Shown piece by piece: positions 1-32,000 of a stretch of 32,000 nucleotides of DNA. The notes below the pieces were generated by a model, which saw only the letters and a list, made by a program, of their open reading frames with translations, ran no database searches and was not told where the DNA came from. Location of the stretch: contig JBAZMW010000001.1 in the NCBI GenBank assembly GCA_041649575.1, positions 150,001-182,000 of the forward strand, in the 5' to 3' direction. The stretch's first letter is position 1. Every line of letters starts with the position of its first letter. A program made the translations under genes and the position numbers. Origin of the DNA: Patescibacteria group bacterium (GTDB lineage Bacteria; Patescibacteriota; Patescibacteriia; 2-01-FULL-39-33).

Positions 1-34
1 AAACAAAAAAACACCTCCGCTTTTAGGCGGAGGT
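1..34 (-). terminator. Intrinsic terminator downstream of the GT4 gene
   Basis: The hairpin is acctccgc/ttttag/gcggaggt at 13-34. On the minus strand it is followed by a T-run (complement of 1-11). It lies about 10 nt past the stop codon at 44-46. Confidence 0.6.
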
Positions 35-43
35 AAAATTTTT

Positions 44-1189
44 TTAAGCTTTTTTTAGAGCCAGCCTTCTCTTTTCCGGCATAATTTCTTGATAGAGGCT
101 AATGGTTTGTTTGACGATATTGTCCCAACCGTATTCTTTGTCAACGCGGGTTTTGGCCAACTGGGCTTTATCTTTGATAATCTTAGGATTGTCACAGGCA
201 AAATTTAATTTTCTGGCCAAATCCTCAATGTCTTTGTTTTTAAATTCCAGAGCAAAGCCCTTGACCGCCTCCCGGTTTTCCTCGATATCACTAATCAGCA
301 CCGGAATATTATAGGCCATGGCTTCCAATAAGGCGATAGATAATCCTTCGGCTTCGGAGGGCTGGATAAAGAGATAAGAGTTCTTAAATAAAGTTTCTAA
401 ATCACCGCCTGATTTTTGGCCGGTAAAAATTATTTTGTCATTATTGGCCGACAAGTTTTTGAGATAGTTAACATAGTTGTCGGTATTGGCGCCAGTGCCC
501 ACCAGCACCAGTTTTTTTTCGGTTTTTAGCTGTTGGTAAGCTTTGATTAAGGTATGAATGCCTTTATGTTGGATCAGTCTGGAAACGGCAATCAGGTAGC
601 CGTTTTTTTCCAGATTATATTTCTTTAAGATGTCGTTAGAATTTTTATTTTCGATCAACTGGACGCCGTTGGGGATATAGCTGGTTTCGCGATCAAAACG
701 ATACTTGCAATACTTTTTTAAGGTTTCAGAAACGGTAATGGTTTGGTGAGGAAAGCGGCAGGCAGCCCATTCGCCTAGTCCTAACATAAACCTGGCAAAG
801 CCACCCCATTTTTGATGGTAGCGATCAATGCAGTGAAAGGTGGCGATTACTTTGGCCTTTGGCTTGAAAAGCCGCGGAATCCACGATAACAGAGAAGGCC
901 CAACGCCGTGATAATGAATAATGTCATAATCCTTAAACAATGAATCAATGGAAGCAAAAAGAGTATGAGTAATCGCATCCAAATTTTTAGTCTTAATTGA
1001 AGGCAAATTAATAATTTTTACTCCCTGATAGGTATAAGAATTTTTGTAATTACCGGTGTAGTAGGCACGACTATAAACCGTGACATCAAAGCCTGCCCGG
1101 GCTAGCCTGGTAGAGAGCTCTTCGACATGTTTTTCAATGCCGCCTTGTTTGGTTGGTATGCCTTTTTGCCCGATTAATGCTATTTTCAT
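44..1189 (-). CDS. Glycosyltransferase, family 4 (GT-B fold)
   Basis: The ORF is 381 aa. Its N-terminus (MKIALIGQKGIP..GGIEKHV) is typical of GT4, and the C-terminal block PSEAEGLSIALLEAMA matches the GT4 E-x7-E region. There is no SD; an ATG follows an A/T-rich leader. Confidence 0.85.
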   Translation of the reverse strand: MKIALIGQKGIPTKQGGIEKHVEELSTRLARAGFDVTVYSRAYYTGNYKNSYTYQGVKIINLPSIKTKNLDAITHTLFASIDSLFKDYDIIHYHGVGPSLLSWIPRLFKPKAKVIATFHCIDRYHQKWGGFARFMLGLGEWAACRFPHQTITVSETLKKYCKYRFDRETSYIPNGVQLIENKNSNDILKKYNLEKNGYLIAVSRLIQHKGIHTLIKAYQQLKTEKKLVLVGTGANTDNYVNYLKNLSANNDKIIFTGQKSGGDLETLFKNSYLFIQPSEAEGLSIALLEAMAYNIPVLISDIEENREAVKGFALEFKNKDIEDLARKLNFACDNPKIIKDKAQLAKTRVDKEYGWDNIVKQTISLYQEIMPEKRRLALKKA

Positions 1190-1208
1190 AGATTCTTTTT
1201 AAGGGTTA

Positions 1209-1237
1209 ATCGTAGCAAATAAATAAAATCTTGTCAA
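1209..1237 (-). promoter_or_regulatory. Sigma70-type promoter for the GT4 gene
   Basis: On the minus strand: TTGACA (1232-1237), a 17-nt spacer, then TACGAT (1209-1214). The -10 box ends about 20 nt upstream of the ATG at 1189. Confidence 0.55.
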
Positions 1238-1286
1238 GGGCTATTTTTTGTTTTTAAGAGGATAAATCATTTTTGTTAAATTTAAG

Positions 1287-1334
1287 TAAAATAATAAGGT
1301 GGGGCCAAGCGATTTGCCGTCGCTTGGTCCCACC
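1287..1334 (-). terminator. GC-rich intrinsic terminator of cassette A
   Basis: On the minus strand: GGTGGGaCCAAGCGA-cggcaaa-TCGCTTGGcCCCACC (1298-1334), followed by ttattatttta. The hairpin starts 17 nt after the stop at 1352-1354. Confidence 0.7.
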
Positions 1335-1351
1335 AGGTGATGCACCTTCAA

Positions 1352-2542
1352 TCATCGGAAAAAGGGGACGCTCAGCGCCGCCATTTCCGGAGGCCGGTCT
1401 TCGAACACCAGCGAGCCACCTCGCAGGGTTATTGCCCGGCCATCAGTCGTGGCCGTTGGCACAGACCAGTTCCAGAGCGCCGCTTCCCAGGTGTCGCCGT
1501 TGGAGTCAATCCCGTCCAATTGGGTCATCAGGGTGTTGCCTGGCAACTCCATAATGACCGCCTGGCTGATCGAGAAGATCTGTTGGCGATAAACCGTCGC
1601 CGAGTCGCTGGTCCAACAAGTGAAGCGTACCAGCATGATGTCTGGCGGGCTACCAGTAAACAGGTTGCCAATTGCTGCTCCGTCGGCGTCGATCGTGGCT
1701 GTCAGCTTGCGGCCGTCAGCGGCATAGGCGAAGACCAGGCCCGGATGCGGCGTGTTGGCGGCTACTGTCAGCGCGGCGACATTGGACATTGTCTCCACGA
1801 TGACGTTTCTCACGACGCAGGTGTAGCTGCCGTTGTCCGAGACTTGCGCGGCGGTGATGATGAAAGCAGAGTTGGTGGCCCCACTTATCGCCGTGCCGTC
1901 CTTCTTCCATTGATAGGTGAAGAGCGGCAGATTGAAGCTGGAATCGGCTGCTACCGTGAACGTGGCCTGCGCATCGACGGCCACTGTTTGTGACGCCGGC
2001 TGCGTGTTAATCACTGGTGCGGCTGGTGCTGGTGTGGATAGGTCGAGGTTGTAACTGGCATCGGGTCGAACGGTAAGCGCCACGCCGTTGAGCCAGGCGT
2101 GGGCGATGCCGATTCCAAGCGATGGATCGGTATTGGCAAATATCCGTTGTTGGACGCCGCCGGGCGCGACCACAAAGTAGGGTGTGGTCCATAGCACCGG
2201 ATTGGTACTAAAGTCGAAGTCGACCGTGGCGCCAGAGAAGCTGGAAATGCCGTTGTAGCCGACCCCAGCGGTCTCTCCGATCGCGTCGCCGTTCGTTCCG
2301 ACGGCGCTAGTCTCGCAATGAGCCATCCAGGGAGGGACACTTCCGTACAACGCGGTCCCGCAAGCCGCGACATCCGACCACAGGTAATCGGGCTGGCCGG
2401 CGGCCACTTGCTTGAAGGTGCTGCCGTCGGCCAGGAAGACCACGTACAACTGGTCTTCACCAGGCTGGTGGAGATAGTAGACTTCCGCGGCTTGCACCCA
2501 GGCGGGGTAGACAAACAATAGTAGTACGAGTAGTTTCTTCAT
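1352..2542 (-). CDS. Secreted protein with one Ig-like (I-set/YQW-type) domain; high-GC cassette A
   Basis: I chose the ATG at 2542, not the track start at 2593, because GAAAGGAG lies 7 nt upstream. The N-terminus MKKLLVLLLFVYPAWVQA-AE is a signal peptide with an AXA cleavage site. The Ig-like block is QPASQTVAVDAQATFTV..YQWKKDGTAISGATNS..GSYTCVV. Overlapping ORFs in other frames are typical of GC-rich DNA. Confidence 0.75.
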   Translation of the reverse strand: MKKLLVLLLFVYPAWVQAAEVYYLHQPGEDQLYVVFLADGSTFKQVAAGQPDYLWSDVAACGTALYGSVPPWMAHCETSAVGTNGDAIGETAGVGYNGISSFSGATVDFDFSTNPVLWTTPYFVVAPGGVQQRIFANTDPSLGIGIAHAWLNGVALTVRPDASYNLDLSTPAPAAPVINTQPASQTVAVDAQATFTVAADSSFNLPLFTYQWKKDGTAISGATNSAFIITAAQVSDNGSYTCVVRNVIVETMSNVAALTVAANTPHPGLVFAYAADGRKLTATIDADGAAIGNLFTGSPPDIMLVRFTCWTSDSATVYRQQIFSISQAVIMELPGNTLMTQLDGIDSNGDTWEAALWNWSVPTATTDGRAITLRGGSLVFEDRPPEMAALSVPFFR

Positions 2543-2667
2543 GACACGACTCCTTTCGTCGGTTTGTGTGGGCAAAGATTGATCGTCGCCCACTTATGGA
2601 CAACAATCAACCGTTGACAATGTGCTTTCCGATTCTGGATAAATTACCACCAGATTCAGAACGTTGT

Positions 2668-2696
2668 ATTTTATATTATCTTTCGTAATTTGTCAA
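2668..2696 (-). promoter_or_regulatory. Sigma70-type promoter of cassette A
   Basis: On the minus strand: TTGACA (2691-2696), N17, TAAAAT (2668-2673). It sits in an AT-rich spacer 8 nt downstream of cassette B's terminator T-run. The implied 5' UTR is about 110 nt. Confidence 0.6.
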
Positions 2697-2703
2697 GTCT
2701 TTA

Positions 2704-2740
2704 TAAAAAAAGAAAACAGCTGATGCGCGCACCAGCTGCT
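2704..2740 (-). terminator. GC-rich intrinsic terminator of cassette B
   Basis: On the minus strand: GCAGCTGgTGCG/CGCAtCAGCTGT hairpin (2716-2740), followed by tttcttttttt (2704-2715). Confidence 0.7.
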
Positions 2741-2775
2741 GATAGTATGATGTACAAACGAGCAATCCCGAGACC

Positions 2776-3921
2776 CTAGAGTTGGCATGTCCAGGTGCTT
2801 CGGAGATCTTTGGCGGTCAGCTCTCCGTTGAAGAAGAGGTTGATGTAGTCCGGGTTAGCCCAGACCGTGCTGCCGTCTTGTCGGCGAGCTACCAGGTTGA
2901 ACCTCAAGGACGGTGTCCGGCCGGGACTGAGGAAAAACCGCAAGGGCCGAGTGGCTCCGGCCAGGTCTTTTCCTTCAATCGCACTCCAGGGCGGAGTGGA
3001 AACGGTGTCATAATAGCGAATGACATCAACCCGTCTGATCTGCGACCAGTCTGTCACGCCCGGGAAAGCCAGAGAGACGTGCTCCAGTCCTTGGTAGAGG
3101 CGAGCCTCGATCTTAGCTTTGGGCCAGACGCTGTCGTAGGTGAGCCAGAGAGTGGCTCGAAGTGGGGATGGTTCTATGACTACGTCGCGGATGACAGTTA
3201 AAGCCCAGTTTCCAGTAGAGTCCGCCACATCATACGACAAATAGTAGAAGCCAGGTTGTCGAGAATCGATCGATCCGGAGGCGATGATGTGACTGGTTAT
3301 GTCGCCGTCGATGTTATCAACGGCAGTCGCGCCCGGGTCGACGAATTCGTCACCAACCATGATGTAGGAAGTGAACCTGGTCATGAAGGCCAAGAGCAGA
3401 CTTCTTTGACCTGGTTGGTTTACCGGTATCAACCAGTATCCCAGCGGGCCATTGGCATCTTCGGCTTCCTCTTGCGGCTCGCCATCAACCGTGCAGGTGA
3501 GATTTGGCAGGTAGGCCCAGTATAAGCCGTCGGTTGTGGCGGGGTTGGGCGTGGTTGCATGCCTGGCAACCAGCGTGACCGCTACCGAGCCGACATCCGG
3601 CGGGAATTCGTGGGTGACAGCTAACCGTTCTGGGCAGTTAGGCGAGAATCCGGAAGTGGTGAATTTCATGGTGCTATAATTACCGCACCACATCATCACG
3701 CCGACATTCTCGATATTAGCGTCGGGTAGATCAATGAAGAGATCAGTCAGGAAATGGCATTCATCTTCATTGAAGTGAACCCATAGACTGGGCACCAGAC
3801 CGGTGTTAGCCATGGGCCAATTCTTCTGAGTGTCGCCTGGAGTTACGGCCGCTGGCGGACAACCGCTTAAGGGAACTAATGCTACTGCCAGGAGTAGTGT
3901 TGGGGCAATCAAGTTTTTCAT
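2776..3921 (-). CDS. Lipoprotein with a DUF5011-like bacterial Ig-like domain; high-GC cassette B
   Basis: The ORF is 381 aa, with GAAAGGA 7 nt upstream of the ATG. The signal peptide ends in the lipobox LSGC. The block VGDEFVDPGATAVDNIDGDITSHI..GFYYLSYDVADSTGNWA..R.VVI matches my recollection of the DUF5011 pattern. The N-terminal module resembles the central module of cassette C protein (HF..ECHF..MMWCGNY versus HHW..NCF..AMVCAYPN). Confidence 0.72.
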   Translation of the reverse strand: MKNLIAPTLLLAVALVPLSGCPPAAVTPGDTQKNWPMANTGLVPSLWVHFNEDECHFLTDLFIDLPDANIENVGVMMWCGNYSTMKFTTSGFSPNCPERLAVTHEFPPDVGSVAVTLVARHATTPNPATTDGLYWAYLPNLTCTVDGEPQEEAEDANGPLGYWLIPVNQPGQRSLLLAFMTRFTSYIMVGDEFVDPGATAVDNIDGDITSHIIASGSIDSRQPGFYYLSYDVADSTGNWALTVIRDVVIEPSPLRATLWLTYDSVWPKAKIEARLYQGLEHVSLAFPGVTDWSQIRRVDVIRYYDTVSTPPWSAIEGKDLAGATRPLRFFLSPGRTPSLRFNLVARRQDGSTVWANPDYINLFFNGELTAKDLRSTWTCQL

Positions 3922-3967
3922 GTCTTGATCCTTTCTGCCAAGCCCAACCAGAGGTCGGGGGTAGAAA

Positions 3968-4040
3968 GCGTGGACAAGATTTGCAAAAGTTATTGTCCAC
4001 GCCTGTGGACAACAGCTGTAAGCATGGGGCGCTGTCCACG
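3968..4040 (-). promoter_or_regulatory. Four-segment alternative-hairpin element in the 5' UTR of cassette B
   Basis: The 7-mer GTGGACA/TGTCCAC occurs four times in alternating orientation (3970-3976, 3994-4000, 4005-4011, 4033-4039). Mutually exclusive pairings are possible: a perfect 10-bp inverted repeat (3968-3977 with 3993-4002) and a perfect 8-bp inverted repeat (3993-4000 with 4005-4012). Confidence 0.4.
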
Positions 4041-4103
4041 GCCCTAGAAATCACAACTTCTCAAGGTGCTCCAAACCCGGGAACTGCCAGGGTTTAGTTG
4101 GTT

Positions 4104-4132
4104 ATTGTATGTTATTTTTTATAACTTGTCAA
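4104..4132 (-). promoter_or_regulatory. Sigma70-type promoter of cassette B
   Basis: On the minus strand: TTGACA (4127-4132), N17, TACAAT (4104-4109). It lies 12 nt downstream of cassette C's terminator T-run. The implied 5' UTR is about 180 nt. Confidence 0.6.
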
Positions 4133-4144: not shown

Positions 4145-4198
4145 ATAAAAAAAGAAGGGGAACAGCCATGACTCTCTCGTGAGAGATGGCTATTCCCC
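4145..4198 (-). terminator. GC-rich intrinsic terminator of cassette C
   Basis: On the minus strand: GGGGAAtAGCCATctCTCTC-acga-GAGAGtcATGGCTgTTCCCC (4157-4198), followed by ttctttttttat (4145-4156). The hairpin starts 20 nt after the stop at 4219-4221. Confidence 0.75.
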
Positions 4199-4218
4199 GT
4201 CCAAGGTACAGAGCCCGC

Positions 4219-6714
4219 TTAGAGCGCGGGCATGTCGTAGTTGTCGCCGTCCGCCCGGCTCATGACGCTGCCATTCCAGGTTCCGGGAACCTTGCCAGTA
4301 TTGACGAAGTACCTGGCTGGGTCGCCGGAGAGTTTGACGAACGGGACGGCTCTTCGCGGCTTGTCCGAAACGTCCAACGTCACCGACGATGACCCTGACA
4401 CAGTCATCGTCGCCGACTTACTCTCGTGCCGCGACGGTTGGCTCGTCCACAGCCATAAGATCCCGACCTCGCAAACGTCGGCGTAGGTCTTGCCGGACGG
4501 CAGATTGCTGTACGGCGAGATGATCTCGGCCAGCGTCAGGCTGTCAGGCAGGATGCGGAGGTTGACCGTTGACCCGCCGCTGTAAGTGAATTCAGCGACA
4601 AGGGTCGTCGATGCTCCGACTATCAGTATGGCCTCGGTGGAGGTCACACTGCCGACAGCGTTGGAGACGGTGCAAGCGTAACGAGCCGTGTCAGTGTTCG
4701 TCACACCGAGCGTGAAGCTGGAGTTGGTGGCTCCGCTTATTGCCACGCCGTCCTTCTTCCACTGATACGAGAGCGGCGTCGTGCCCGAGGCCACAACCGT
4801 GAACGTAACCAGCGATCCAATACTGGCCGTCTGTGATACCGGTTGCGTGGTGATCGTCGGGGCGACCGCTGTCGATTCGATTGTCAGTGTAGCCACATTG
4901 GACGTTGCTGTTCCAGCGGCGTTTTTCACGACACAGCGATAGGCGCCTTCGTTGATCGCACCTGCCGACAGAATAGTGAGCGCGGAGCTCTTCACACCTA
5001 TCGAAGCGCTGTTCTCTGCGATGTCAACGCCGTTCATCTGCCATTGGTATGACAGCGGCGCTGTGCCCGTAGCCGTGACACTGAAGGTGGCCGACGCACC
5101 CAGGTCCACAGTAAGCGAGTCTGGCTGTTTGGTGATCGTCGGGGCGACGGCTGTCGACGCTAGCGTCAGCGTTGCCACGTTCGACGTTGCTGTTCCAGCG
5201 GCGTTCTTCACGATACAGCGGTAGGCGCCAGCATTCACTGTGCCAACTGACAAGATTGTAAGAGTCGGACTCTTTATTCCCGTAGACGCGCTGTTCTCGG
5301 GAATGTCCACTCCGTTGTCTTGCCATTGGTATGACAGTGGCGCTGTGCCGGTGGCCGTGACACTGAAGATCGCCTGTTCGCCGACGTTTACCGTCAGTGA
5401 ATCCGGCTGTTTGGTGATCGCCGGGCTGATGGCTTCTCCTGCGGCCATGGCCACGTCGATTTTGTAGTAGCCGAGTCCTTGCCCGCTGGAGCCGGTCTCC
5501 TCGTGGAGTTCGGTTCCGCCACTCACGCCGATGCCTTGCACTGTGCCGTTCTCGGCGGCATCGACCCGCCAGAGTTTGACCCAGTAGAAATGGTCGGAGT
5601 TCGGGTGTTTGGCTGCGAGTCGTAGCTCGATCTGTTCGGCGCCGGCCATGTTCTGTTGCCAGACACCTTTGAGATTGATCACGGCCGGCGTACCATACTC
5701 CCAGTCGGGTGGTGGTACTGGCAGGATGATGCCGCCAGTATCGTTCGGGTACGCGCAAACCATCGCGCAGAGTCCGCTCGGAGACTGGTCATCGGGCCAT
5801 CCGATGAAGCAGTTCCTCAGATCCCAGTGGTGTACATCGCAGTACACCGAGAGTTCGTCGCTGGTGTTGACGACGTTCAAGGTGACAATCGCGCTGTCGT
5901 CTTGCCAGGGGATTTCGCCCTCTCCTTCGCCTTCGCCTTCTCCTTCTCCGGCGTGATGGTTGGGATGGTCGTCCGGATTCAGTGGGTCGGTACCGGCATT
6001 GATTTCTTCGCGGTCCGTGTAGCCGTCTCCATCCGTGTCGGATCCGTACTGACCATACGGCAGGGTACCATAGAAGCATTCCTGCCAGTTGGGTACGCCA
6101 TCGCTGTCCGGATCGCCTAGGGACCCGTTTTCGCCCGCCGGATCGTGCGGATCCAGCGAGTTTAGTGACTCCCAGAAATTGGGCATGCCGTCGCCGTCGG
6201 TATCGTCCAGTTCCGGAGCTTGCCGCCGGATGAAGATCGTGATCACAGAGTCGTGTCCGTTTAGTTTAACGGATAGGTCGACTCTGATCGACTTCGCCGC
6301 CGGGCTTGGTGGTACCGTTACCTCCCACTGCGTGCCGTCTCCTTCGATGTGGGGCGGGTCACTGGGAACACCAAATGGTTTACCCACCTCATTGAGATAG
6401 AGTCCATCGGTGATGCCACTGGCTTTGCCGCAGTCAAGCGGGAAGTCGACCCACTGGCCTTGCATTTCGGGCAGGGAAATCTCATACGAAACCGTCCCGC
6501 CCCTGGCGCAGTCGAAGTGGGCGCCGTCGATCTTGATCTTGGCCCCGTGTGAAATAACCACTCCAGGGTTGGCAACCTCGACAATTCCGATTTGCTGTCC
6601 GGTCTCGCCGAAGGTCGTCACCAGGATCGACATCTCTCTTTTTTCGGGGCATCCTACGAACAGAAGCCCCATGGCCAACGTAACTGCCACGCACATACTC
6701 ACTCTCGTCTTCAT
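4219..6714 (-). CDS. Large lipoprotein with thrombospondin-type-3-like Ca-binding repeats, a (GE)6 linker and three tandem Ig-like domains; high-GC cassette C
   Basis: I chose the ATG at 6714 because AAAGGAGG lies 4 nt upstream; the track start at 6765 is a TTG. The N-terminus MKTRVSMCVAVTLAMGLLFVGC carries a lipobox-like VGC. Asp-rich repeats (DTDGDGMPN, DPDSDGVPN, DTDGDGYTD) resemble TSP type 3. There are three units of the form QPDSLTV..ATFSVTATGTAPLSYQW..GAYRC.VKNAAGTATS. Confidence 0.8.
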   Translation of the reverse strand: MKTRVSMCVAVTLAMGLLFVGCPEKREMSILVTTFGETGQQIGIVEVANPGVVISHGAKIKIDGAHFDCARGGTVSYEISLPEMQGQWVDFPLDCGKASGITDGLYLNEVGKPFGVPSDPPHIEGDGTQWEVTVPPSPAAKSIRVDLSVKLNGHDSVITIFIRRQAPELDDTDGDGMPNFWESLNSLDPHDPAGENGSLGDPDSDGVPNWQECFYGTLPYGQYGSDTDGDGYTDREEINAGTDPLNPDDHPNHHAGEGEGEGEGEGEIPWQDDSAIVTLNVVNTSDELSVYCDVHHWDLRNCFIGWPDDQSPSGLCAMVCAYPNDTGGIILPVPPPDWEYGTPAVINLKGVWQQNMAGAEQIELRLAAKHPNSDHFYWVKLWRVDAAENGTVQGIGVSGGTELHEETGSSGQGLGYYKIDVAMAAGEAISPAITKQPDSLTVNVGEQAIFSVTATGTAPLSYQWQDNGVDIPENSASTGIKSPTLTILSVGTVNAGAYRCIVKNAAGTATSNVATLTLASTAVAPTITKQPDSLTVDLGASATFSVTATGTAPLSYQWQMNGVDIAENSASIGVKSSALTILSAGAINEGAYRCVVKNAAGTATSNVATLTIESTAVAPTITTQPVSQTASIGSLVTFTVVASGTTPLSYQWKKDGVAISGATNSSFTLGVTNTDTARYACTVSNAVGSVTSTEAILIVGASTTLVAEFTYSGGSTVNLRILPDSLTLAEIISPYSNLPSGKTYADVCEVGILWLWTSQPSRHESKSATMTVSGSSSVTLDVSDKPRRAVPFVKLSGDPARYFVNTGKVPGTWNGSVMSRADGDNYDMPAL
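4849..5412. repeat. Two tandem 282-bp repeat units coding Ig-like domains
   Basis: The string ggtgatcgtcggggcgac starts at 4849 and at 5131; a related ggtgatcgccgggc starts at 5413. The period is therefore 282 bp (94 codons). The encoded units are about 80% identical. A more diverged third unit lies at about 4567-4848. Confidence 0.85.
5914..5949. repeat. Hexanucleotide-type low-complexity repeat encoding (Gly-Glu)6
   Basis: The sequence ttcgccctctccttcgccttcgccttctccttctcc encodes GEGEGEGEGEGE on the minus strand, between the TSP3-like region and the central module. Confidence 0.8.
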
Positions 6715-6926
6715 GTTGCCTCCTTTGCCCTTGAGGGCTGTCTGTGTTGGTCGCCCTCGGGGCAACCGTCTTCACTATGTGACACTCCATTACAACACTC
6801 TTACTTGCAAACGAACAACGCGGTTGTTCGTTTTCCTTCTTTGTTTCAAAGGACTGCCGACCACGAGTTCCATGGTCGCTTAAACTGGCCTAAGTCAAAA
6901 GAAAGACCGACCAAGTTTAATATATT

Positions 6927-6955
6927 ATTTTAGCAAGATTATATTTTTTTGTCAA
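6927..6955 (-). promoter_or_regulatory. Sigma70-type promoter of cassette C
   Basis: On the minus strand: TTGACA (6950-6955), N17, TAAAAT (6927-6932). The implied 5' UTR is about 210 nt and contains a perfect 10-bp hairpin at 6810-6832. Confidence 0.6.
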
Positions 6956-23961: not shown

Positions 23962-23981
23962 TTAGTAATTAACCAAAAAAC

Positions 23982-24287
23982 ATGCAAATCAACATCAAAG
24001 CGACCAAGGCGCAGCTCACGCCCCAGGCCCATGATATTATCAATGAAAAAATCGAGAGCCTGGCTAAATACTGCGACTGTATTATCAAAGCGGACGTAGA
24101 AGTGGGATTGACCAGCCTGCATCACAACAAAGGCGATATTTATCGGGCAGAGGTAAATTTGGAGGTGCCGGGAAAAGTTTTGCGCGCCGAAGCCGAGACC
24201 GAAAATATAACCAAATCAATGAACGAGGTGAGAGATAAATTAAAAATGGAATTAGTGAAGTACAAGGAAAAAATCAGAGAAAAATAA
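23982..24287 (+). CDS. hpf: Ribosome hibernation promoting factor / RaiA family (short form)
   Basis: The ORF is 101 aa. The pattern MQINIKATKAQLTPQAHDIINEKIESLAKY...YRAEVNLEVPGKVLRAEAE...M..VRDKL matches the S30EA / sigma-54 modulation protein family. Confidence 0.85.
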   Translation: MQINIKATKAQLTPQAHDIINEKIESLAKYCDCIIKADVEVGLTSLHHNKGDIYRAEVNLEVPGKVLRAEAETENITKSMNEVRDKLKMELVKYKEKIREK

Positions 24288-24298
24288 ATAAAAAAATG

Positions 24299-24335
24299 AA
24301 CTACCCCAGTTCTGATAAGAATTAGGGTAGTTTTA
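24299..24335 (+). terminator. Candidate terminator after hpf
   Basis: The stem aactaccc (24299-24306) pairs with gggtagtt (24325-24332) across an 18-nt loop and is followed by ttat. The large loop lowers my confidence. Confidence 0.4.
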
Positions 24336-24439
24336 TGAATCCAGAAATATTTTAATAGTTTGGACAGGTGGGGCAGCTTTTATTTGCCTTATCTTGACTT
24401 TTTTGTTAAAATAATGGCGTTATTATTTATTTTTATCAA

Positions 24440-27160: not shown

Positions 27161-27172
27161 TCGGGACGGTCA

Positions 27173-27194
27173 CTTTTTTCCTAGGAGAAAAAAG
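27173..27194. terminator. CTAG-centred T-arm/A-arm imperfect palindrome after secA
   Basis: The sequence is cttttttcCTAGgagaaaaaag, 13 nt past the secA stop. It has the same style as the palindrome after mraY. Confidence 0.4.
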
Positions 27195-27234
27195 CTGACT
27201 AAAAAGAAATAGCTCGCATTATATAATTAGATAT

Positions 27235-27666
27235 ATGGATCACGTTGCTATAATGAATAAGTCGTGGAAGCTGATCCCGAAAATTTTATCAGGAGAGAAA
27301 ACCATCGAATCTCGTTGGTATCAGACAAAGCGCTCGCCTTGGGGAAAAATAATGGCTGGCCAGACTGTTTATTTTAAAAATTCTGGTGAGCCTGTTATTG
27401 CTAAGGCTATAGTCTCTGAGGCGATGCAGTTTGAAATTAATAGCATTGATGATGCAAGGGATATTGTAAGCAAATACGGCCAAGAAATATGCCTGGTCGA
27501 TAATAATCCAGCCCGATGGAGAAGGCTGGCTAAGTATTGCATTCTCATTCGTTTGAAAAATCCTGAAAGGTTAGCCACGCCATTTCAAATTGATAAAAAA
27601 GGATTTGGGAGCGGTGCGGCCTGGATTATAGTAGAAAGTATAGAAAAGATCAAAATAAAAGAGTAA
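27235..27666 (+). CDS. ASCH-domain protein
   Basis: The ORF is 143 aa. The N-terminal block KILSGEKTIESRW fits the ASCH beta-barrel signature as I recall it. Confidence 0.55.
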   Translation: MDHVAIMNKSWKLIPKILSGEKTIESRWYQTKRSPWGKIMAGQTVYFKNSGEPVIAKAIVSEAMQFEINSIDDARDIVSKYGQEICLVDNNPARWRRLAKYCILIRLKNPERLATPFQIDKKGFGSGAAWIIVESIEKIKIKE

Positions 27667-27678
27667 TTTTTATTTAGT

Positions 27679-27936
27679 ATGGATATCCTGGAAGAACGAA
27701 TAAAAAAGATTGAAGAGAGAAATCTCAAAGTAGAGGTAGACAAAGCCTGGGAAACCAGCTGGACCAGGAGGCTTTGCGTTGCTATTTTTACTTATCTGGC
27801 TATCAGTTTGTATATGTTGGCGGTTGATATAGACCGGCCCTGGCTTAATGCTATTGTGCCCACGGTTGGTTTTATGATTTCTACACTCGCCATACAGCCT
27901 ATAAAAAATATTTGGATTAAAATTAATAAAAAATAA
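27679..27936 (+). CDS. Small membrane protein, function unknown
   Basis: The ORF is 85 aa with a charged N-terminal helix and two hydrophobic segments (LCVAIFTYLAISLYMLAV, IVPTVGFMISTLAI). Confidence 0.5.
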   Translation: MDILEERIKKIEERNLKVEVDKAWETSWTRRLCVAIFTYLAISLYMLAVDIDRPWLNAIVPTVGFMISTLAIQPIKNIWIKINKK

Positions 27937-27946
27937 CAAGAATTAT

Positions 27947-28426
27947 ATGGAAGGCAAAATAAAAAAGCCACTAACTTTATGCTTAGTGCATCAGGAGAAT
28001 AAAATTCTCTTAGGTATGAAAAAAAGAGGATTTGGCGCTGGCAGATGGAATGGCTTCGGCGGAAAATTACAAGAAGAAGAAAGCATCGAAGCAGCGGCTA
28101 AAAGAGAAATGCTAGAAGAAGCAGGACTGGATGTGAGGGATTTAGAATTAGTGGGTATTATGGAATTTGACGCCCCGCATTTTGAAAAAATTCTAGAGGT
28201 CCATGTTTTTCGAGCGGGTGATTTTGAGGGTGAGCCAATAGAATCCGAAGAGATGTTGCCCCAGTGGTTTGAAACAAATCAATTGCCGTTTGACTCAATG
28301 TGGCCAGACGATATACACTGGATGCCGCTTTTTTTGGCTGGCAAAAAATGGCGCGGTAGATTCTTTTTTGATGAAAAAACCAACGAAATTGTGGAAATGG
28401 AGATATCAGAAGTTGACTCTTTGTAG
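27947..28426 (+). CDS. NUDIX hydrolase, MTH1/NUDT1-like (probable oxidised purine NTP pyrophosphatase)
   Basis: The ORF is 159 aa. The NUDIX box GGKLQEEESIEAAAKREMLEEAGL is preceded by RWNGFGG, which closely resembles the MTH1 motif RWNGFGGKVQEGE...RELQEESGL. Confidence 0.8.
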   Translation: MEGKIKKPLTLCLVHQENKILLGMKKRGFGAGRWNGFGGKLQEEESIEAAAKREMLEEAGLDVRDLELVGIMEFDAPHFEKILEVHVFRAGDFEGEPIESEEMLPQWFETNQLPFDSMWPDDIHWMPLFLAGKKWRGRFFFDEKTNEIVEMEISEVDSL

Positions 28427-28872: not shown

Positions 28873-28903
28873 AAAGGTTTCGCCTTGAAGTTCTGGTGGC
28901 ACA

Positions 28904-28991: not shown

Positions 28992-29852
28992 ATGCCAGAA
29001 TTGCCGGAAGTGCAGACCGTCGTATCTGAACTGCAAAAAAAGATAAAGAATAAAAAGATAAAGGAAGTGCGGGTAAGGGCTGCTAAGGTAGCTTTGCCTA
29101 GCGTTAAAATTCTAATAGCCAAACTAAAGAACAAAAAGATTCATGGCGTTTCTCGCCGCGGCAAGATGATTATTATTGATTTGGGCGGTGATCACAATAT
29201 TTTAATTCATCTGAAGATGACCGGTCAGCTGGTTTATGTGTCTAAGTCTGGTAAAAAGGTTTCGGGTGGCCATCCAATTGGCAACGTTGGAATTTTGCCT
29301 AATAAATTTTCTCACGTGATTATAAAATTTACTGACGGTTCGGTTCTGTATTTCAACGATATACGTAAGTTCGGCTGGGTTAAATATGTTGATAATGCCA
29401 GACGGGATTTGGCCAAACAAAAATACGGCATTGAGCCGTTTGACAAGGAATACAAAATTGATTGGCTTGGGTCGCTCTTGAAAAGATATAAAAATAAAAA
29501 GATTAAGCAACTATTAATGGATCAAGAAAAAATCGCTGGTATTGGCAATATTTACGCCGATGAGTCGTTGTTTGCGGCCGGCGTTTTGCCCACCAGAACC
29601 AGCGGTAGCTTGAAAAAAGCGGAAATTAGTAAATTATTTGAGGCAATTCCTAAAATTTTGAAATTAGCAATCACCAAGGGCGGTACCTCGGCCGACAATT
29701 ACGTGCGCACCGACGGCACCCAAGGCGGTATGATGAAATATTTGAAAGTTTATGGCCGAAAAGGAAAAAAATGCCGGCGTTGCGGCGGCAGAGTTAAAAA
29801 AATAAAACTGGGCGGCCGTGGCACGCATTTTTGCCCAGCTTGTCAAAAATAA
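28992..29852 (+). CDS. mutM: Formamidopyrimidine-DNA glycosylase (Fpg/MutM)
   Basis: The ORF is 286 aa. It has the catalytic N-terminus MPELPEV, an H2TH region and the C-terminal zinc finger CRRCGG...GRGTHFCPACQK. Confidence 0.92.
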   Translation: MPELPEVQTVVSELQKKIKNKKIKEVRVRAAKVALPSVKILIAKLKNKKIHGVSRRGKMIIIDLGGDHNILIHLKMTGQLVYVSKSGKKVSGGHPIGNVGILPNKFSHVIIKFTDGSVLYFNDIRKFGWVKYVDNARRDLAKQKYGIEPFDKEYKIDWLGSLLKRYKNKKIKQLLMDQEKIAGIGNIYADESLFAAGVLPTRTSGSLKKAEISKLFEAIPKILKLAITKGGTSADNYVRTDGTQGGMMKYLKVYGRKGKKCRRCGGRVKKIKLGGRGTHFCPACQK

Positions 29853-30342: not shown

Positions 30343-30372
30343 AAGTAACCCTCCTTTCCAAGGACTAGCTAT

Positions 30373-30401
30373 TTTATATCAGTTAACCGGCAAAAAAGCA
30401 A
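30373..30401 (-). promoter_or_regulatory. Candidate promoter of cassette F (weaker match)
   Basis: On the minus strand: TTGCTT (30396-30401), N17, TATAAA (30373-30378). It overlaps the T-tract of the upstream gene's terminator. Confidence 0.35.
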
Positions 30402-30425
30402 ACACCCTGATAAACGGGTGCTTGT
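30391..30425 (-). terminator. Intrinsic terminator of the divergent-PAP2 gene
   Basis: On the minus strand: CAAGCACCC-gtttatca-GGGTGTTTG, a 9-bp stem with one G-U pair, followed by cttttttg. The hairpin starts about 17 nt past the stop at 30440-30442. Confidence 0.6.
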
Positions 30426-30439
30426 TGGTTTGATGGAGA

Positions 30440-30874
30440 TTAAAGTATTATAAAAATCAAATAAAGCAAGATAGTCAGGCCGATGCCGATGCCCGTGCCG
30501 ATAATTACTTCCATTAAGCCGTGGCCAACCCGTTCTGGCAGATAGGTGATCGTCTTTTTGTTTTTGAAAATTTCTTTGGCCAGACGATTGGTGAGAGCGG
30601 CATTATCGCCGATTTCGCGGCGGAAACCGATAGCGTCCCGCACTACTATCACCCACAAGACAAAGGCAATGGCAAAGGCGGCGGAGTCAAATCTCTGGGT
30701 CAGGCCGACAACAGTAGCCAGAGAAGTGACAAAAGCCGCATGAGAAGAAGGCATGCCGCCGTAATCTCTGACCAGGTGTTGCCAAGTCAAATTATTTGGT
30801 ATACCATCAATAGAGAGTTTGATAATTTGAGTGGCGATACCCACTATAACGGGAATCAAGATTAACTCGAACAT
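30440..30874 (-). CDS. Divergent PAP2 / acid-phosphatase-vanadium-haloperoxidase-related membrane protein (DUF212-like)
   Basis: The ORF is 144 aa and polytopic. It carries the signature GGMPSSHAAFVTSLA. Confidence 0.75.
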   Translation of the reverse strand: MFELILIPVIVGIATQIIKLSIDGIPNNLTWQHLVRDYGGMPSSHAAFVTSLATVVGLTQRFDSAAFAIAFVLWVIVVRDAIGFRREIGDNAALTNRLAKEIFKNKKTITYLPERVGHGLMEVIIGTGIGIGLTILLYLIFIIL

Positions 30875-30888
30875 AGTTTTGATTTTTT

Positions 30889-31737
30889 ATGCAATATTTT
30901 TTAGCAATTTTTGCCGGAGTTCTGCAGGGGCTGACTGAATTTTTACCGATTTCCAGCTCCGGACACCTGGTAATCTTTCATCAGATTTTTAAGGTTTCTT
31001 TTATTGGCGGTCCGGGCGCGGGCGAGAGCTTGTCGGGAGATTTATTGTTTGATGTGGTGCTGCATCTGGGAACTCTGGTGGCTCTCTTGGTCTTTTTTTT
31101 CCGTGATGTGGAAAAAATTGTTCGTGGTTTTTTCTCCAGCCTGACCAACTGGAACTGGGCCAATAATTTTAATCAACGCCTGGCTTGGCTGGTAATTATC
31201 GGCACGATTCCGGCGGCAATCCTGGGGTTTTTTCTGGAAGATTTAATAACTAATTACTCGCGTTCCGCTTTTTTAGTGGCTATAATGTTGATTGTGGTGG
31301 CGGTACTATTTTGGATTTTTGAAAAATATTCTTTGAAACAGAAAGATTTGCAAACCGCCAGTAGATGGGATTCCTTGATTATTGGTTGCGCTCAAGCCCT
31401 GGCTCTGATTCCCGGAGTTTCACGCAGCGGCATTACCATTATAGCAGGTCTGGGCAGAAAGATGAAGCGAATCGAGGCCGCTAGGTTTTCTTTTTTGCTG
31501 TCGATGCCGATAATTTTTGCCGCCGGCATCAAAAAAATATTAGAAATCGACAGCTTGGCCAATGTTAATTGGCTAATTTTGATTATTGGTTTTTTGACGG
31601 CCACCGTCTCTGGCTATTTGGTGATAAAATACTTTCTTAAATACCTGAATCGTCATTCTCTGAATATTTTTGCCTGGTATCGATTGATAATTGGCTGTTT
31701 GATATTGATTTGGTTGATTTTTTTCTTTGGCGCATAG
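30889..31737 (+). CDS. uppP: Undecaprenyl-diphosphate phosphatase
   Basis: The ORF is 282 aa. It has the UppP/BacA motifs LQGLTEFLPISSSGHL and PGVSRSG.TI, and it is polytopic. Confidence 0.9.
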   Translation: MQYFLAIFAGVLQGLTEFLPISSSGHLVIFHQIFKVSFIGGPGAGESLSGDLLFDVVLHLGTLVALLVFFFRDVEKIVRGFFSSLTNWNWANNFNQRLAWLVIIGTIPAAILGFFLEDLITNYSRSAFLVAIMLIVVAVLFWIFEKYSLKQKDLQTASRWDSLIIGCAQALALIPGVSRSGITIIAGLGRKMKRIEAARFSFLLSMPIIFAAGIKKILEIDSLANVNWLILIIGFLTATVSGYLVIKYFLKYLNRHSLNIFAWYRLIIGCLILIWLIFFFGA

Positions 31738-32000
31738 AGAATAAGGCAAAAGCCGACAAAAACCATCAGCAAATAATTGTTTAAGCGGTTGAGCTCTTCC
31801 AGGTTTTCCAGTCTGACCAGTTTTTGCCAAAAATCCTCGGGGTAAAAATAATTGGCAGCCGGCTTTTGGTCACTGGAGTCGGCAGCAGAATCGGTTTCGG
31901 TGTCGCCCAGGACTCGGCTGCCAAAAAGTTGCACCACCACTATGGCCGAGTGATTTTCAAACTTTCCTTTCAGAGCGGCCAGCCCGATTTCCTGGTATTG
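31653..32000 (-). CDS. 5'-truncated ORF entering from beyond the window; unknown protein with a C-terminal hydrophobic segment
   Basis: The minus-strand frame is open from position 32000 down to the stop at 31653. The track's start at 31940 is only an internal GTG. The hydrophobic segment is NYLLMVFVGFCLILYA. The ORF overlaps the 3' end of uppP by 85 nt, which is unusual. Confidence 0.3.
   Translation of the reverse strand, partial: QYQEIGLAALKGKFENHSAIVVVQLFGSRVLGDTETDSAADSSDQKPAANYFYPEDFWQKLVRLENLEELNRLNNYLLMVFVGFCLILYAPKKKINQINIKQPIINRYQAKIFRE

What the first reader, a model, noticed from the sequence alone, without database searches (positions are those of the whole stretch)
1..32000. 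Translation-initiation dichotomy: all six high-GC genes carry a Shine-Dalgarno-type site, while about 20 backbone genes have none
**High-GC units.** All six have a purine-rich SD-type site 4-10 nt upstream of the start:
- A: gaaaggag-7-ATG
- B: gaaagga-7-ATG
- C: aaaggagg-4-ATG
- D: aaggagg-10-ATG
- E: aaggagg-8-ATG
- F: aaggaggg-6-ATG

**Backbone genes.** I read the 20 nt upstream of the starts at 1189, 8306, 10448, 11632, 13138, 13943, 14499, 15785, 18935, 20094, 21167, 22895, 23982, 24440, 27235, 27679, 27947, 28992, 30874 and 30889. All have A/T-rich leaders with no GGAGG-like element. Examples are aaccaaaaaacATG (hpf), aatcaaaaaacATG (mutM) and aaatttaaacaaatATG (13943). The only borderline case is ggaagag upstream of 22600.

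**Interpretation.** Two translation-initiation styles coexist in one 32-kb stretch and they match the compositional split exactly. Either the cassettes arrived recently from an SD-using donor, or SD-dependent initiation is used deliberately to give these genes a distinct translational regime.
Basis: seen in the sequence. Interest (0 to 1): 0.7.

Follow-up and report, generated by a model that had tools for sequence, protein, structure and literature searches.

The report
SD-led foreign cassettes in SD-less CPR genome
In a tiny-genome Patescibacteria (CPR) chromosome whose ordinary genes start translation without a Shine-Dalgarno site, six GC-rich lineage-specific inserts are complete promoter-to-terminator gene cassettes that all carry a textbook Shine-Dalgarno site. 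Related genomes show the same split between conserved genes and stand-alone orphan cassettes.

Summary
All six high-GC units have a canonical SD 4-10 nt before ATG (-5.7 to -12.4 kcal/mol against a generic anti-SD). None of 23 backbone genes in the window is below -4.1, and none of 45 backbone genes in 52 kb of the same genome has a well-spaced SD.

The window is a Patescibacteria chromosome (O-antigen-type glycosylation cluster (Wzy/Wzz, glycosyltransferases), dcw cluster, secA, mutM). SD-poverty is clade-wide and partly published: about half of Parcubacteria lack the anti-SD motif.

Each unit is an autonomous cassette:
- a host-type TTGACA-17-TAnAAT promoter (F: extended -10) in AT-rich DNA;
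- a GC-rich leader with the SD;
- an ORF;
- an intrinsic terminator.

Units D, E and F are absent from the syntenic sites of relatives. A-C are exported Ig-domain proteins, E and F are orphans, and D has only a 41-codon ORF.

Across 23 SD-poor relatives, all 24 strong-SD genes lack a homolog in any other fetched locus, against 0 of 195 conserved genes. One relative carries unrelated SD-led cassettes in the same mutM-flanking slots.

Best reading: these are acquired accessory cassettes whose SD is probably still used, because their start regions are folded and not A-rich. The organism's 16S 3' end could not be obtained, so a functionless relic SD remains a live rival.

The parts
1286..2696 (-). 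Unit A cassette. Promoter TTGACA-17-TAAAAT at 2696-2668; 119-nt leader (45% GC); SD GAAAGGAG at 2557-2550; ORF 2542-1352 (396 aa, Sec signal peptide, one Ig domain; 60% GC, GC3 0.72); terminator hairpin 1335-1298 plus T-run.
2705..4132 (-). Unit B cassette. Promoter TTGACA-17-TACAAT at 4132-4104; 176-nt leader (53% GC) carrying four GTGGACA/TGTCCAC arms; SD GAAAGGA at 3935-3929; ORF 3921-2776 (381 aa, lipobox LSGC, Bact_surface_Ig-like domain; 55% GC); terminator 2740-2715.
4146..6955 (-). Unit C cassette. Promoter TTGACA-17-TAAAAT at 6955-6927; 206-nt leader (49% GC); SD AAAGGAGG at 6726-6719; ORF 6714-4219 (831 aa, lipobox FVGC, TSP3 repeat, three I-set Ig domains as 282-nt tandem modules; 59% GC, GC3 0.70); terminator 4199-4154.
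18421..18832 (-). Unit D cassette, inserted between murD and ftsW. Promoter TTGACA-17-TAATAT at 18832-18804; SD AAGGAGG at 18759-18753; ATG at 18742; only a 41-codon ORF (18742-18617), followed by 185 nt of 69% GC; terminator 18465-18432 plus T-run. Possibly a decayed gene or a small peptide/RNA.
   Evidence: murD and ftsW are adjacent in L005, L009, L011 and L092
28429..28944 (+). Unit E cassette, inserted between the nudix gene and mutM. Promoter TTGACA-17-TACAAT at 28429-28457; SD AAGGAGG at 28489-28495; ORF 28504-28872 (122 aa orphan, predicted three-helix bundle; 59% GC); terminator 28903-28934.
   Evidence: slot empty in L003
29847..30382 (-). Unit F cassette, inserted between mutM and the DUF212 gene. 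Extended -10 (TGaTATAAAAT) at 30382-30371; SD AAGGAGGG at 30356-30349; ORF 30342-29920 (140 aa orphan; 55% GC); terminator 29884-29857.
   Evidence: slot empty in L003
7029..18321 (.). Backbone block 1: hyp425, GHL15/FG-GAP, GT4, Wzy and Wzz on the minus strand; hyp124, mraY, hyp376 and murD on the plus strand. All starts have A/T-rich, G-poor leaders without an SD. The operon promoters at 14098-14070 (minus) and 14049-14077 (plus) are of the same sigma-70 type as the units' promoters.
18935..28426 (+). Backbone block 2: ftsW, murG, murC, hyp89, murB, hpf, secA, hyp143, hyp85 and nudix. No SD at any start. hyp89, hyp143 and hyp85 are lineage-specific, of native GC, and SD-less.
28992..29852 (+). 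mutM, a backbone gene lying between units E and F; its leader is aatcaaaaaacATG with no SD.
44..1237 (-). GT4a, a backbone glycosyltransferase with its own TTGACA-17-TACGAT promoter (1237-1209) and a roughly 13-nt SD-less leader. It shows that the units and the backbone share the same promoter type.

Best explanation
The window is a stretch of a Patescibacteria (CPR) chromosome. Its conserved genes, like those of its relatives, initiate translation without a Shine-Dalgarno interaction. Their leaders are A-rich, G-depleted and unfolded.

Six lineage-specific, GC-rich inserts are self-contained expression cassettes. Each consists of:
1. a host-type sigma-70 promoter in AT-rich DNA;
2. a GC-rich leader with a canonical SD 4-10 nt before ATG;
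3. one ORF;
4. an intrinsic terminator.

The cassettes are accessory genes of foreign origin: three exported Ig-domain surface proteins, two orphans and one short or decayed ORF. The SD came in as part of the imported translation-initiation region and is most likely still used. The cassette start regions are GC-rich and folded, so they cannot use the backbone's unstructured A-rich mode. Pairing with the 16S 3' tail would give the 30S subunit its foothold.

Shown: the motifs, spacing and statistics, the cassette anatomy, absence from relatives, and clade-wide restriction of SDs to non-conserved genes.

Inferred: the foreign origin, that the promoters fire, that the lineage keeps a usable anti-SD, and that the SD is functional.
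For: **SD split**
- Six of six units have an SD, against 0 of 23 backbone genes in the window and 0 well-spaced among 45 in 52 kb.
- This is not a GC artefact and not start mis-annotation.

**Backbone initiation mode**
- Positions -25..-1 are 43% A and 11% G, with 49-60% A at -11..-5.
- Start regions fold at -4.3 kcal/mol, against -10.1 for internal windows of the same genes.
- The units' start regions fold at -10.0 kcal/mol (p = 0.002).

**Cassette anatomy**
- Five perfect TTGACA -35 boxes with an exact 17-nt spacer, and one extended -10.
- Five of the eight best promoter-like sites in the window precede units. The other three precede the backbone operons GT4a, Wzz and mraY.
- Every unit has a hairpin-plus-T terminator.
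- Promoters are 13-32% GC, leaders 42-53% and 3' UTRs 52-69%, against 16-37% for most backbone intergenic DNA.

**Insertion**
- In L003 (SecA 75% identical), nudix-mutM-DUF212 are 54 and 45 nt apart.
- murD and ftsW abut in L005, L009, L011 and L092.

**Clade level**
- Relatives have 0-15% of genes at or below -6 kcal/mol, equal to the 8% background. Geobacter and Firmicutes controls have 54-67%.
- All 24 strong-SD ORFs fall among the 198 with no homolog in any other fetched locus, and 0 of 195 conserved ORFs has one (p = 6e-8). SD-using genomes show no such bias.
- Those SD-led genes show the same promoter-SD-ORF-terminator anatomy, and 9 of 10 tested have no Pfam match.
- All three GC outliers (at least +0.10) in relatives have an SD (p = 2e-4).
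- L088 has unrelated SD-led cassettes in the same two mutM-flanking slots.
- Some SD-led cassettes are compositionally native (L006:9473-9721, 26% GC), which argues for retention by selection.

**Assembly**
- Units lie inside contigs of two assemblies that are 100% identical to the window.
Against:
- The anti-SD motif was detected in only 48% of Parcubacteria (PMC9297842).
- No donor was identified. E and F are orphans in about 15 billion proteins. A and C match others only over Ig repeats, at 45-53% identity.
- The host-like promoters are hard to reconcile with a simple one-step import.
- No mobility gene, tRNA, att-like repeat or target duplication flanks the units.
- The syntenic 'empty site' test was possible only for D, E and F.
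- The clade-wide statistics rest on a crude ORF caller. 'No homolog in the other fetched loci' is not the same as 'accessory'.
- The three assemblies may derive from the same reads.
Confidence: 0.5

Rival explanations
1. Relic SD. The cassettes were imported from SD-using, roughly 55-60% GC bacteria so recently that neither composition nor SD has decayed. The recipient's ribosome lacks or hides the anti-SD, so the SDs do nothing. Any translation of the cassettes is inefficient or absent.
For: - Anti-SD loss is documented in about half of Parcubacteria.
- Conserved genes are not merely SD-poor but SD-free: 0 of 195, below the 3-4% rate of control windows. This is what a ribosome without SD recognition predicts.
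- In this window GC and SD co-vary, and lineage-specific genes of native GC have lost or never had an SD.
- Unit D looks decayed.
- The nearest Ig relatives live in 55-57% GC genomes that use SDs moderately.
Against: - All six cassettes keep a strong host-type promoter, an intact terminator and, in five of six, a long intact ORF. This is unexpected for untranslated DNA in a streamlined genome.
- SD-led cassettes recur in at least 10 related genomes, some with fully native or lower GC.
- There is no donor for E and F among 15 billion proteins.
Confidence: 0.3
2. A dedicated second translational channel. The lineage keeps an anti-SD that is normally occluded or used only by a ribosome sub-population, as bS21-lacking ribosomes are in Bacteroidia. 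SD-led accessory cassettes are translated only under particular conditions, for example host contact, which separates accessory from core expression.
For: - Precedent: Bacteroidia ribosomes are SD-blind because bS21, bS18 and bS6 sequester the anti-SD, and bS21-less ribosomes translate SD-led rpsU (PMC9976891 and PMC13000457).
- There is a sharp all-or-none split between conserved and non-conserved genes across the clade.
- The backbone's upstream-adenine pattern resembles that of Bacteroidia.
- A-C are surface adhesin-like proteins next to type IV pilus and glycosylation genes.
Against: - There is no evidence here on ribosome composition or the 16S tail.
- The SDs (7-8 bp) are ordinary. They are not the extended helix of below -13 kcal/mol (13 bp) typical of Bacteroidia rpsU.
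- The SD-led genes are unrelated orphans with no shared regulator or leader motif.
Confidence: 0.15
3. Artefact. On this reading the pattern comes from chimeric assembly of a high-GC contaminant, from chance SD-like strings in GC-rich DNA, or from wrongly called backbone starts.
For: The sequence is a metagenome-assembled genome, and the unit boundaries show sharp GC steps.
Against: - Units are internal to contigs from two different assemblers, with backbone on both sides, and are 100% identical to the window.
- Six separate inserts each sit between a host-type promoter and a terminator.
- The chance rate of an SD this strong in unit-like sequence is 1.9% per window.
- Alternative starts do not reveal hidden SDs.
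Confidence: 0.02

Closest known systems
SD-independent initiation in Bacteroidia (anti-SD sequestered by bS21/bS18/bS6; upstream adenines select the start; rpsU is the lone SD-led gene) - PMC9976891, PMC13000457
   Same: - Conserved genes have essentially no SD.
- Leaders are A-rich, G-poor and unfolded.
- A small minority of genes nevertheless carries a canonical SD.
   Different: - This is a different phylum (Patescibacteria).
- The SD-led genes are not rpsU. They are unrelated, non-conserved stand-alone cassettes.
- Their SDs are of ordinary length.
- Whether the anti-SD is present, lost or hidden is unknown here.
Anti-SD loss in a Parcubacteria subgroup (Tsurumaki et al. 2022, PMC9297842)
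   Same: The same radiation. It explains, or at least fits, the SD-less backbone and the SD-poor relatives.
   Different: That work looked at 16S rRNA only. It did not report SD-led accessory cassettes inside such genomes. If this MAG lacks the anti-SD, the cassette SDs are relics.
Morons of temperate phages (autonomous promoter-gene-terminator units of deviant composition inserted between genes; from my own knowledge of Juhala/Hendrix et al. 2000)
   Same: - One gene with its own sigma-70 promoter and intrinsic terminator.
- Composition unlike the neighbours.
- Wedged into intergenic gaps without disturbing the flanking genes.
   Different: - The neighbours are chromosomal core genes (dcw cluster, secA, mutM), not a prophage.
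- There are no phage genes in 52 kb.
- PHROG hits are to generic Ig domains only.
Ordinary horizontally acquired genomic islets at pan-genome hot spots
   Same: - Atypical GC and GC3.
- Absent from syntenic sites in relatives.
- The same intergenic slots hold different cargo in another species (L088).
   Different: - No integrase, tRNA, repeats or donor.
- Each islet is a single gene with a host-like promoter.
- The feature that marks them is a translation signal the rest of the genome does not use.
Integron gene cassettes
   Same: Single-ORF units, three of them in a same-orientation array (A-B-C).
   Different: - No intI and no attC-like conserved recombination site.
- Every unit has its own promoter and terminator.

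Membership tests
Canonical Shine-Dalgarno translation-initiation region | A purine-rich motif complementary to the CCUCC core of the 16S 3' tail | tested here: met
   AAGGAGG or GAAAGGAG variants occur in all six units, at -5.7 to -12.4 kcal/mol (short anti-SD) and -10.6 to -17.7 (long tail).
Canonical Shine-Dalgarno translation-initiation region | Spacing of about 4-10 nt to the start codon | tested here: met
   Spacings are 7, 7, 4, 10, 8 and 6 nt.
Canonical Shine-Dalgarno translation-initiation region | A complementary anti-SD present and accessible in the organism's own 16S rRNA | not testable with these tools
   There is no rRNA in the window or in any fetched locus. The literature reports the motif in only 48% of Parcubacteria.
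Canonical Shine-Dalgarno translation-initiation region | Translation depends on the SD | not testable with these tools
   This needs reporter assays, ribosome profiling or proteomics.
Bacteroidia-type SD-independent initiation (for the backbone) | SDs absent from nearly all genes, including ribosomal protein genes | tested here: met
   No well-spaced SD among 45 backbone genes, including rplJ and rplL. Relatives are at background level, and 0 of 195 conserved ORFs has one.
Bacteroidia-type SD-independent initiation (for the backbone) | Upstream adenine enrichment and low structure at the start | tested here: met
   A is 49-60% at -11..-5 and G is 2-11%. Start regions fold at -4.3 kcal/mol, against -10.1 for internal windows.
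Bacteroidia-type SD-independent initiation (for the backbone) | Anti-SD present but sequestered by bS21/bS18/bS6 | not testable with these tools
   Neither the 16S rRNA nor these proteins are in the accessible 52 kb.
Phage moron | Own promoter, a single ORF and an intrinsic terminator, with composition unlike the neighbours | tested here: met
   (sequence-level signals only).
Phage moron | Located between genes of a prophage or phage genome | tested here: not met
   The flanking genes are murD/ftsW, nudix/mutM/DUF212 and glycosyltransferases. There are no phage families apart from Ig-domain hits, and no viral-contig relative of unit B.
Integron cassette array | An intI integrase, attI/attC sites and mostly promoterless cassettes | tested here: not met
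   There is no integrase in 52 kb and no shared 3' recombination-site repeat. Each unit has its own promoter.
Horizontally acquired islet | Atypical composition, including synonymous sites and non-coding parts | tested here: met
   Units are 55-60% GC against 34-51% for the backbone, with GC3 0.60-0.74 against about 0.50. Leaders and UTRs are also GC-rich.
Horizontally acquired islet | Absent from the orthologous site in related genomes | tested here: met
   D, E and F are absent in L003, L005, L009, L011 and L092. A-C could not be tested because no syntenic relative was found.
Horizontally acquired islet | An identifiable donor lineage or close homologs elsewhere | tested here: not met
   E matches only itself. 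F matches itself plus a weak P2-domain hit. C matches others only over Ig repeats, with 33-35% coverage.
Horizontally acquired islet | Mobility signatures (integrase, tRNA target, flanking direct repeats) | tested here: not met
   There are no tRNAs and no flanking repeats beyond AT-rich motifs.

The most novel reading that the evidence does not exclude
SD-poor Patescibacteria keep a working (perhaps conditionally exposed) anti-SD that serves almost exclusively a floating pool of autonomous promoter-SD-ORF-terminator orphan cassettes. These cassettes settle in recurrent intergenic slots, such as the mutM flanks and the hpf-secA gap. The cell would then run two separate initiation channels: SD-free for the conserved core, and SD-dependent for accessory, surface or host-interaction genes.
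Probability: 0.2. Interest if true: 0.75.

Novelty: new variant of a known kind. Interest (0 to 1): 0.5.

Why it matters
CPR/Patescibacteria make up a large share of bacterial diversity, cannot be cultured alone, and have reduced, unusual ribosomes. How they choose start codons is barely studied.

This locus, together with the clade-wide pattern found here, gives a clean natural contrast. Conserved genes never carry an SD, while a subset of stand-alone orphan cassettes always does.

- If the anti-SD is intact, this is a second example, after Bacteroidia rpsU, of SD use confined to a special gene set, here accessory genes. It would give a handle on how foreign GC-rich genes get expressed in an SD-free host.
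- If the anti-SD is gone, SD motifs become a simple, composition-independent marker for recently imported genes in these genomes, and a caution for gene callers.

Either answer needs only the 16S 3' end and a genome-wide scan.

Tried and rejected
- **Structured RNA or tRNA.** Rfam at gathering threshold found nothing in the window. Relaxed scans of unit D and of 1190-7030 gave only noise. ARAGORN found no tRNA. Unit D folds only marginally better than shuffles (z = -2.2).
- **Integron or mobile-element boundaries.** No shared repeat defines the unit ends. Only Ig-module repeats and AT-rich motifs were found.
- **Defence or phage origin.** PADLOC gave nothing, PHROGs gave only generic Ig domains, and unit B has no relative in viral contigs.
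- **Function of E and F.**
  - No Pfam match.
  - AlphaFold2 single-sequence models were weak (F pLDDT 63; E pLDDT 73, a three-helix bundle). Foldseek of E against the PDB found nothing significant.
  - The exhaustive HMMER search for F gave one weak hit to CheA P2-domain repeats.
- **Close relatives for an insertion-polymorphism or SD-conservation test.** The metagenome scan with SecA returned nothing above 65% identity. The GTDB scan's best hit was 75%.
- **16S rRNA.** Conserved 16S motifs were absent from every locus fetched to that point (the first GTDB and same-genome loci). Walking beyond the window is blocked because only window proteins can be looked up.
- **Motif scan.** A naive 'SD motif + start + ORF of at least 40 aa' scan was too noisy: 135 hits against 117 in the mis-spaced control. 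It was replaced by the start-anchored tests.
- **Homology among SD-led genes.** The SD-led genes of relatives are not homologous to each other or to units A-F.

Full report
**What the window is.**
- The backbone (about 41-49% GC per gene) encodes glycosyltransferases, Wzy/Wzz, mraY, murD, ftsW, murG, murC, murB, hpf, secA, a Nudix hydrolase, mutM, a DUF212 protein and uppP.
- SecA's nearest relatives in GTDB genomes are Patescibacteria/CPR MAGs. The best is 75% identical, followed by 61-52% hits that include Magasanikbacteria, Uhrbacteria, Moranbacteria and Nealsonbacteria.
- Units E and F are annotated at NCBI as WC518_00850 and WC518_00860 of a 'Patescibacteria group bacterium'.
- ENA and Logan contigs are 100% identical to the window. 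The high-GC units lie inside those contigs with backbone on both sides. The units are therefore not an assembly chimera, although all assemblies may come from the same reads.

**Checking the observation.**
- Against a generic anti-SD (ACCUCCUUU, positions -25..-4), the units score -8.5, -5.7, -11.8, -11.2, -11.2 and -12.4 kcal/mol.
- The 23 backbone starts lie between +2.9 and -4.1. This is weaker than the all-window background mean of -2.45.
- With a longer Bacillus-type tail the units reach -10.6 to -17.7, and unit B's AGAAAGGA then pairs over 8 bp.
- GC-richness is not the cause. Only 1.9% of 22-nt windows inside the units' own sense strands reach -8.5.
- I extended the test to 52 kb of the same genome using the database's gene calls. 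The 45 backbone genes average -1.1 kcal/mol. The only two below -6 have the motif too far from the start. rplJ and rplL have no SD. Units versus backbone gives p = 1e-4.
- Scanning all in-frame alternative starts does not uncover hidden SDs. The two exceptions are TTG codons 20 and 33 codons inside murB and murG.

**Anatomy of the units.** Each unit is a complete monocistronic transcription unit.
- *Promoters.* Five have a perfect TTGACA, an exact 17-nt spacer and a TAAAAT, TACAAT or TAATAT -10 box. F has an extended -10 (TGaTATAAAAT).
- *Terminators.* Each ends in a strong hairpin followed by a T-run.
- *Shared promoter type.* Of the eight best promoter-like sites in the window, five precede units and three precede the backbone operons GT4a, Wzz and hyp124-mraY. 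The units and the backbone therefore share the same transcription signals and differ only in the translation signal.
- *Composition by segment.* The promoter segments are host-like (13-32% GC). The transcribed non-coding parts are not: leaders are 42-53% GC and 3' UTRs 52-69%, against 16-37% for most backbone intergenic DNA. GC3 is 0.60-0.74 in the units and about 0.50 in the backbone.
- *Products.*
  - A has a Sec signal peptide and one Ig domain.
  - B and C are lipoproteins (lipoboxes LSGC and FVGC). B has a Bact_surface_Ig-like domain. C has a TSP3 repeat plus three I-set Ig domains.
  - E and F have no family.
  - D has only a 41-codon ORF, followed by 185 nt of 69% GC in which GC3 periodicity continues a little past the stop. 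It may be decayed.

**Are the units insertions?**
- In the closest relative, L003, nudix-mutM and mutM-DUF212 are separated by 54 and 45 nt, so units E and F are absent.
- murD and ftsW abut in L005, L009, L011 and L092, so unit D is absent.
- No syntenic relative was available for A-C.

**Is there a donor?**
- E matches only itself among 5.8 billion clustered proteins.
- F matches itself plus one weak domain-level hit to CheA P2 repeats in an exhaustive HMMER search.
- C matches others only over its Ig repeats: 33-35% coverage at 45-53% identity, in Acidobacteria, Verrucomicrobia and Proteobacteria.
- Two of those relatives sit in 55-57% GC genomes with sigma-54 regulators and moderate SD use. 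This fits a donor of similar GC but does not name one.
- No integrase, tRNA, att-like repeat, defence or phage signature accompanies the units.

**The backbone's mode of initiation.**
- Positions -25..-1 of the 45 backbone genes are 43% A, 33% T, 13% C and 11% G. A reaches 49-60% at -11..-5.
- Their start regions (-30..+30) fold at a mean of -4.3 kcal/mol, against -10.1 for internal windows of the same genes.
- The units' start regions fold at -10.0 kcal/mol (p = 0.002).
- This is the pattern described for SD-independent initiation in Bacteroidia, with upstream adenines and SD-blind ribosomes (PMC9976891 and PMC13000457).
- A GC-rich, folded start region cannot use that mode, which is a mechanistic reason for the units to need their SD. 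This step is inference.

**The clade.**
- With the same crude ORF caller, the Patescibacteria relatives have 0-15% of genes at or below -6 kcal/mol, which equals the 8% background. Geobacter, Firmicutes and Dehalococcoidia loci fetched in the same scans have 54-67%.
- SD-poverty is thus a lineage trait. It agrees with the report that the anti-SD motif is detectable in only 48% of Parcubacteria 16S rRNAs (PMC9297842).
- Within 393 ORFs from 23 SD-poor loci, all 24 ORFs with an SD at or below -8 lack a homolog in any other fetched locus (24 of 198, 12%). None of 195 ORFs with homologs has one. Fisher p = 6e-8, and control windows give 3-4%.
- In SD-using genomes the two classes do not differ: 23% against 26%.
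- Most of these SD-led genes show the same anatomy as the window's units: TTGAC[AT]-17-TAnnnT 65-120 nt upstream, consensus AAAGGAGG 4-9 nt before ATG, and a terminator right after the stop.
- Nine of ten tested have no Pfam family, and they are unrelated to each other and to units A-F.
- The only three GC outliers (at least +0.10) among the 393 all have an SD (p = 2e-4).
- L088 (SecA 63% identical, 37% GC) carries unrelated SD-led, GC-elevated cassettes in exactly the slots that E and F occupy here, upstream of mutM and between mutM and DUF212.
- Some SD-led cassettes are compositionally native or even AT-richer (L006:9473-9721, 26% GC, aaaaggaggaaaaaaATG). 'Recent, un-ameliorated import' therefore cannot be the whole story.
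- Conversely, lineage-specific genes of native GC in this window (hyp89, hyp143, hyp85) have no SD.

**Interpretation.**
- *Best-supported reading.* The six units are acquired accessory cassettes that run on host-type transcription signals and keep a foreign-type translation signal. That signal is probably functional. All six retain strong promoters and terminators, and five of the six retain long intact ORFs. Their start regions are unsuited to the host's SD-free mode. The same cassette architecture recurs across the clade, including in native-composition examples.
- *Main rival.* The SD may be a functionless relic in a lineage that has lost or hidden its anti-SD. The complete absence of SDs from conserved genes and the published anti-SD losses favour this.
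- *Minority reading.* There may be a regulated second channel, modelled on the specialised bS21-less ribosomes of Bacteroidia.
- *Artefact explanations* are effectively excluded.

**Comparison with what is known, and novelty.**
- The backbone behaves like Bacteroidia-type SD-independent initiation and fits the published anti-SD loss in Parcubacteria.
- The units work like phage morons or single-gene genomic islets. They fail the moron membership test because there is no prophage context. They fail the integron test because there is no intI or attC and each unit has its own promoter.
- What I did not find described in a limited full-text literature search is the strict restriction of canonical SDs to stand-alone, non-conserved cassettes in SD-poor CPR genomes, or the re-use of the same intergenic slots by unrelated cassettes in different species.
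- I rate this a new variant of a known kind. Interest is moderate (0.5).

**Limits.**
- The anti-SD used for scoring is generic.
- The ORF caller is simple (first ATG, at least 80 aa).
- 'No homolog in the other fetched loci' mixes true accessory genes with genes that merely lie outside the sampled neighbourhoods.
- About 10 of the 24 SD-positive ORFs in relatives have poor spacing and may be chance.
- The GC-outlier test rests on three genes.

Noticed in passing
window 7007-7028 and 18867-18888 (weaker copies at 1270-1290 and 13943-13964): A 22-nt AT-rich, partly palindromic motif, TTTTTGTTTAAATTTAGA[TC]AAA, occurs twice with at most one mismatch (0 expected by chance). It lies 34-51 nt upstream of the -35 boxes of units C and D, and in the second case also upstream of ftsW. 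A degenerate copy sits upstream of the GT4a promoter. It could be an operator or UP-like element, or part of AT-rich terminator hairpins.
   Followed up: partly
window 13956-13965 (-), 18915-18924 (+), 21136-21145 (+): An exact AAATAGCCAA lies 10-13 nt upstream of the starts of Wzz and ftsW, and of the TTG at 21155 of murC. It may be a -10-like element with a short-leader start site, or a start-proximal signal of SD-less genes. If the spacing matters, murC may start at TTG 21155 rather than ATG 21167.
   Followed up: partly
window 3968-4041 (leader of unit B): There are four 7-nt arms: GTGGACA (3970), TGTCCAC (3995), GTGGACA (4006) and TGTCCAC (4033). They can pair 1:2 with 3:4, or 2:3, like an attenuator. 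In DNA they form a perfect TTGTCCAC-N4-GTGGACAA palindrome, like a repressor operator. No Rfam match.
   Followed up: no
window 23867-23962 (between murB and hpf); similar type at L088 6196-6270: A GC-rich palindromic repeat element (TTGTCATCGCGAGGGAGCGTAAGCGA ... TCGCTAAGCTCGCAATGACAA) raises this intergenic spacer to 50% GC. It resembles the small REP/MITE-like 'GTCATTGCGAG / GTCATTCCCGCGAAAGCGGGAAT' palindromes common in environmental genomes (a resemblance recalled from my own knowledge, not tested here).
   Followed up: no
window 18432-18742 (-): Unit D has an intact promoter, SD and terminator but only a 41-codon ORF. The same frame continues for 47 more codons after a TAG, and high GC3 persists slightly past the stop. 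Overlapping ORFs of 62-73 aa exist in other frames. It may be a pseudogene, a small peptide or an RNA.
   Followed up: partly
L088 6337-6558 (-), 6672-7025 (-), 7248-7631 (+), 8637-8864 (-): A related species (SecA 63% identical, 37% GC) has four small stand-alone cassettes around mutM. Three have clear SDs and GC 6-11 points above the genome, and they occupy the same slots as units E and F. One encodes a Cys-rich 73-aa peptide. None is similar to E or F.
   Followed up: yes
L003 4884-5393, L015 2232-2525, L006 9473-9721, L007 9047-9595: In four relatives the gap just upstream of secA (after hpf) holds an unrelated, Pfam-less gene with an SD (-7.3 to -12.3 kcal/mol). The window has only 150 nt there. 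It may be another recurrent cassette slot, but the excess over chance is modest.
   Followed up: partly
window 29920-30342 (-), residues 31-113 of unit F: An exhaustive HMMER search gave one weak hit (E = 2.5e-8) to a Methanococcoides protein made of six CheA P2 (response-regulator-binding) domains plus a CheW domain. Pfam itself does not call P2 in unit F.
   Followed up: partly
window 22600-22869, 27235-27666, 27679-27936: hyp89, hyp143 and hyp85 are also absent from the closest relative. They have native GC (38-48%) and no SD, and they sit inside operon-like spacing rather than as stand-alone cassettes.
   Followed up: partly
window 4745-5308, and 1869-1920 versus 4721-4772: Unit C contains 282-nt tandem Ig modules (70% identical). 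A 52-nt stretch of unit A's Ig domain is 85% identical to one in unit C. This suggests module exchange or duplication between the two cassettes.
   Followed up: no
L085 11252-19313 (just left of the window): A type IV pilus cluster (MshE/T2SSE ATPase, T2SSF, GspH and N-methyl pseudopilins, PilM/N/O) lies directly beyond GT4a. The Ig-domain cassettes A-C are therefore embedded between pilus and surface-glycan genes.
   Followed up: no
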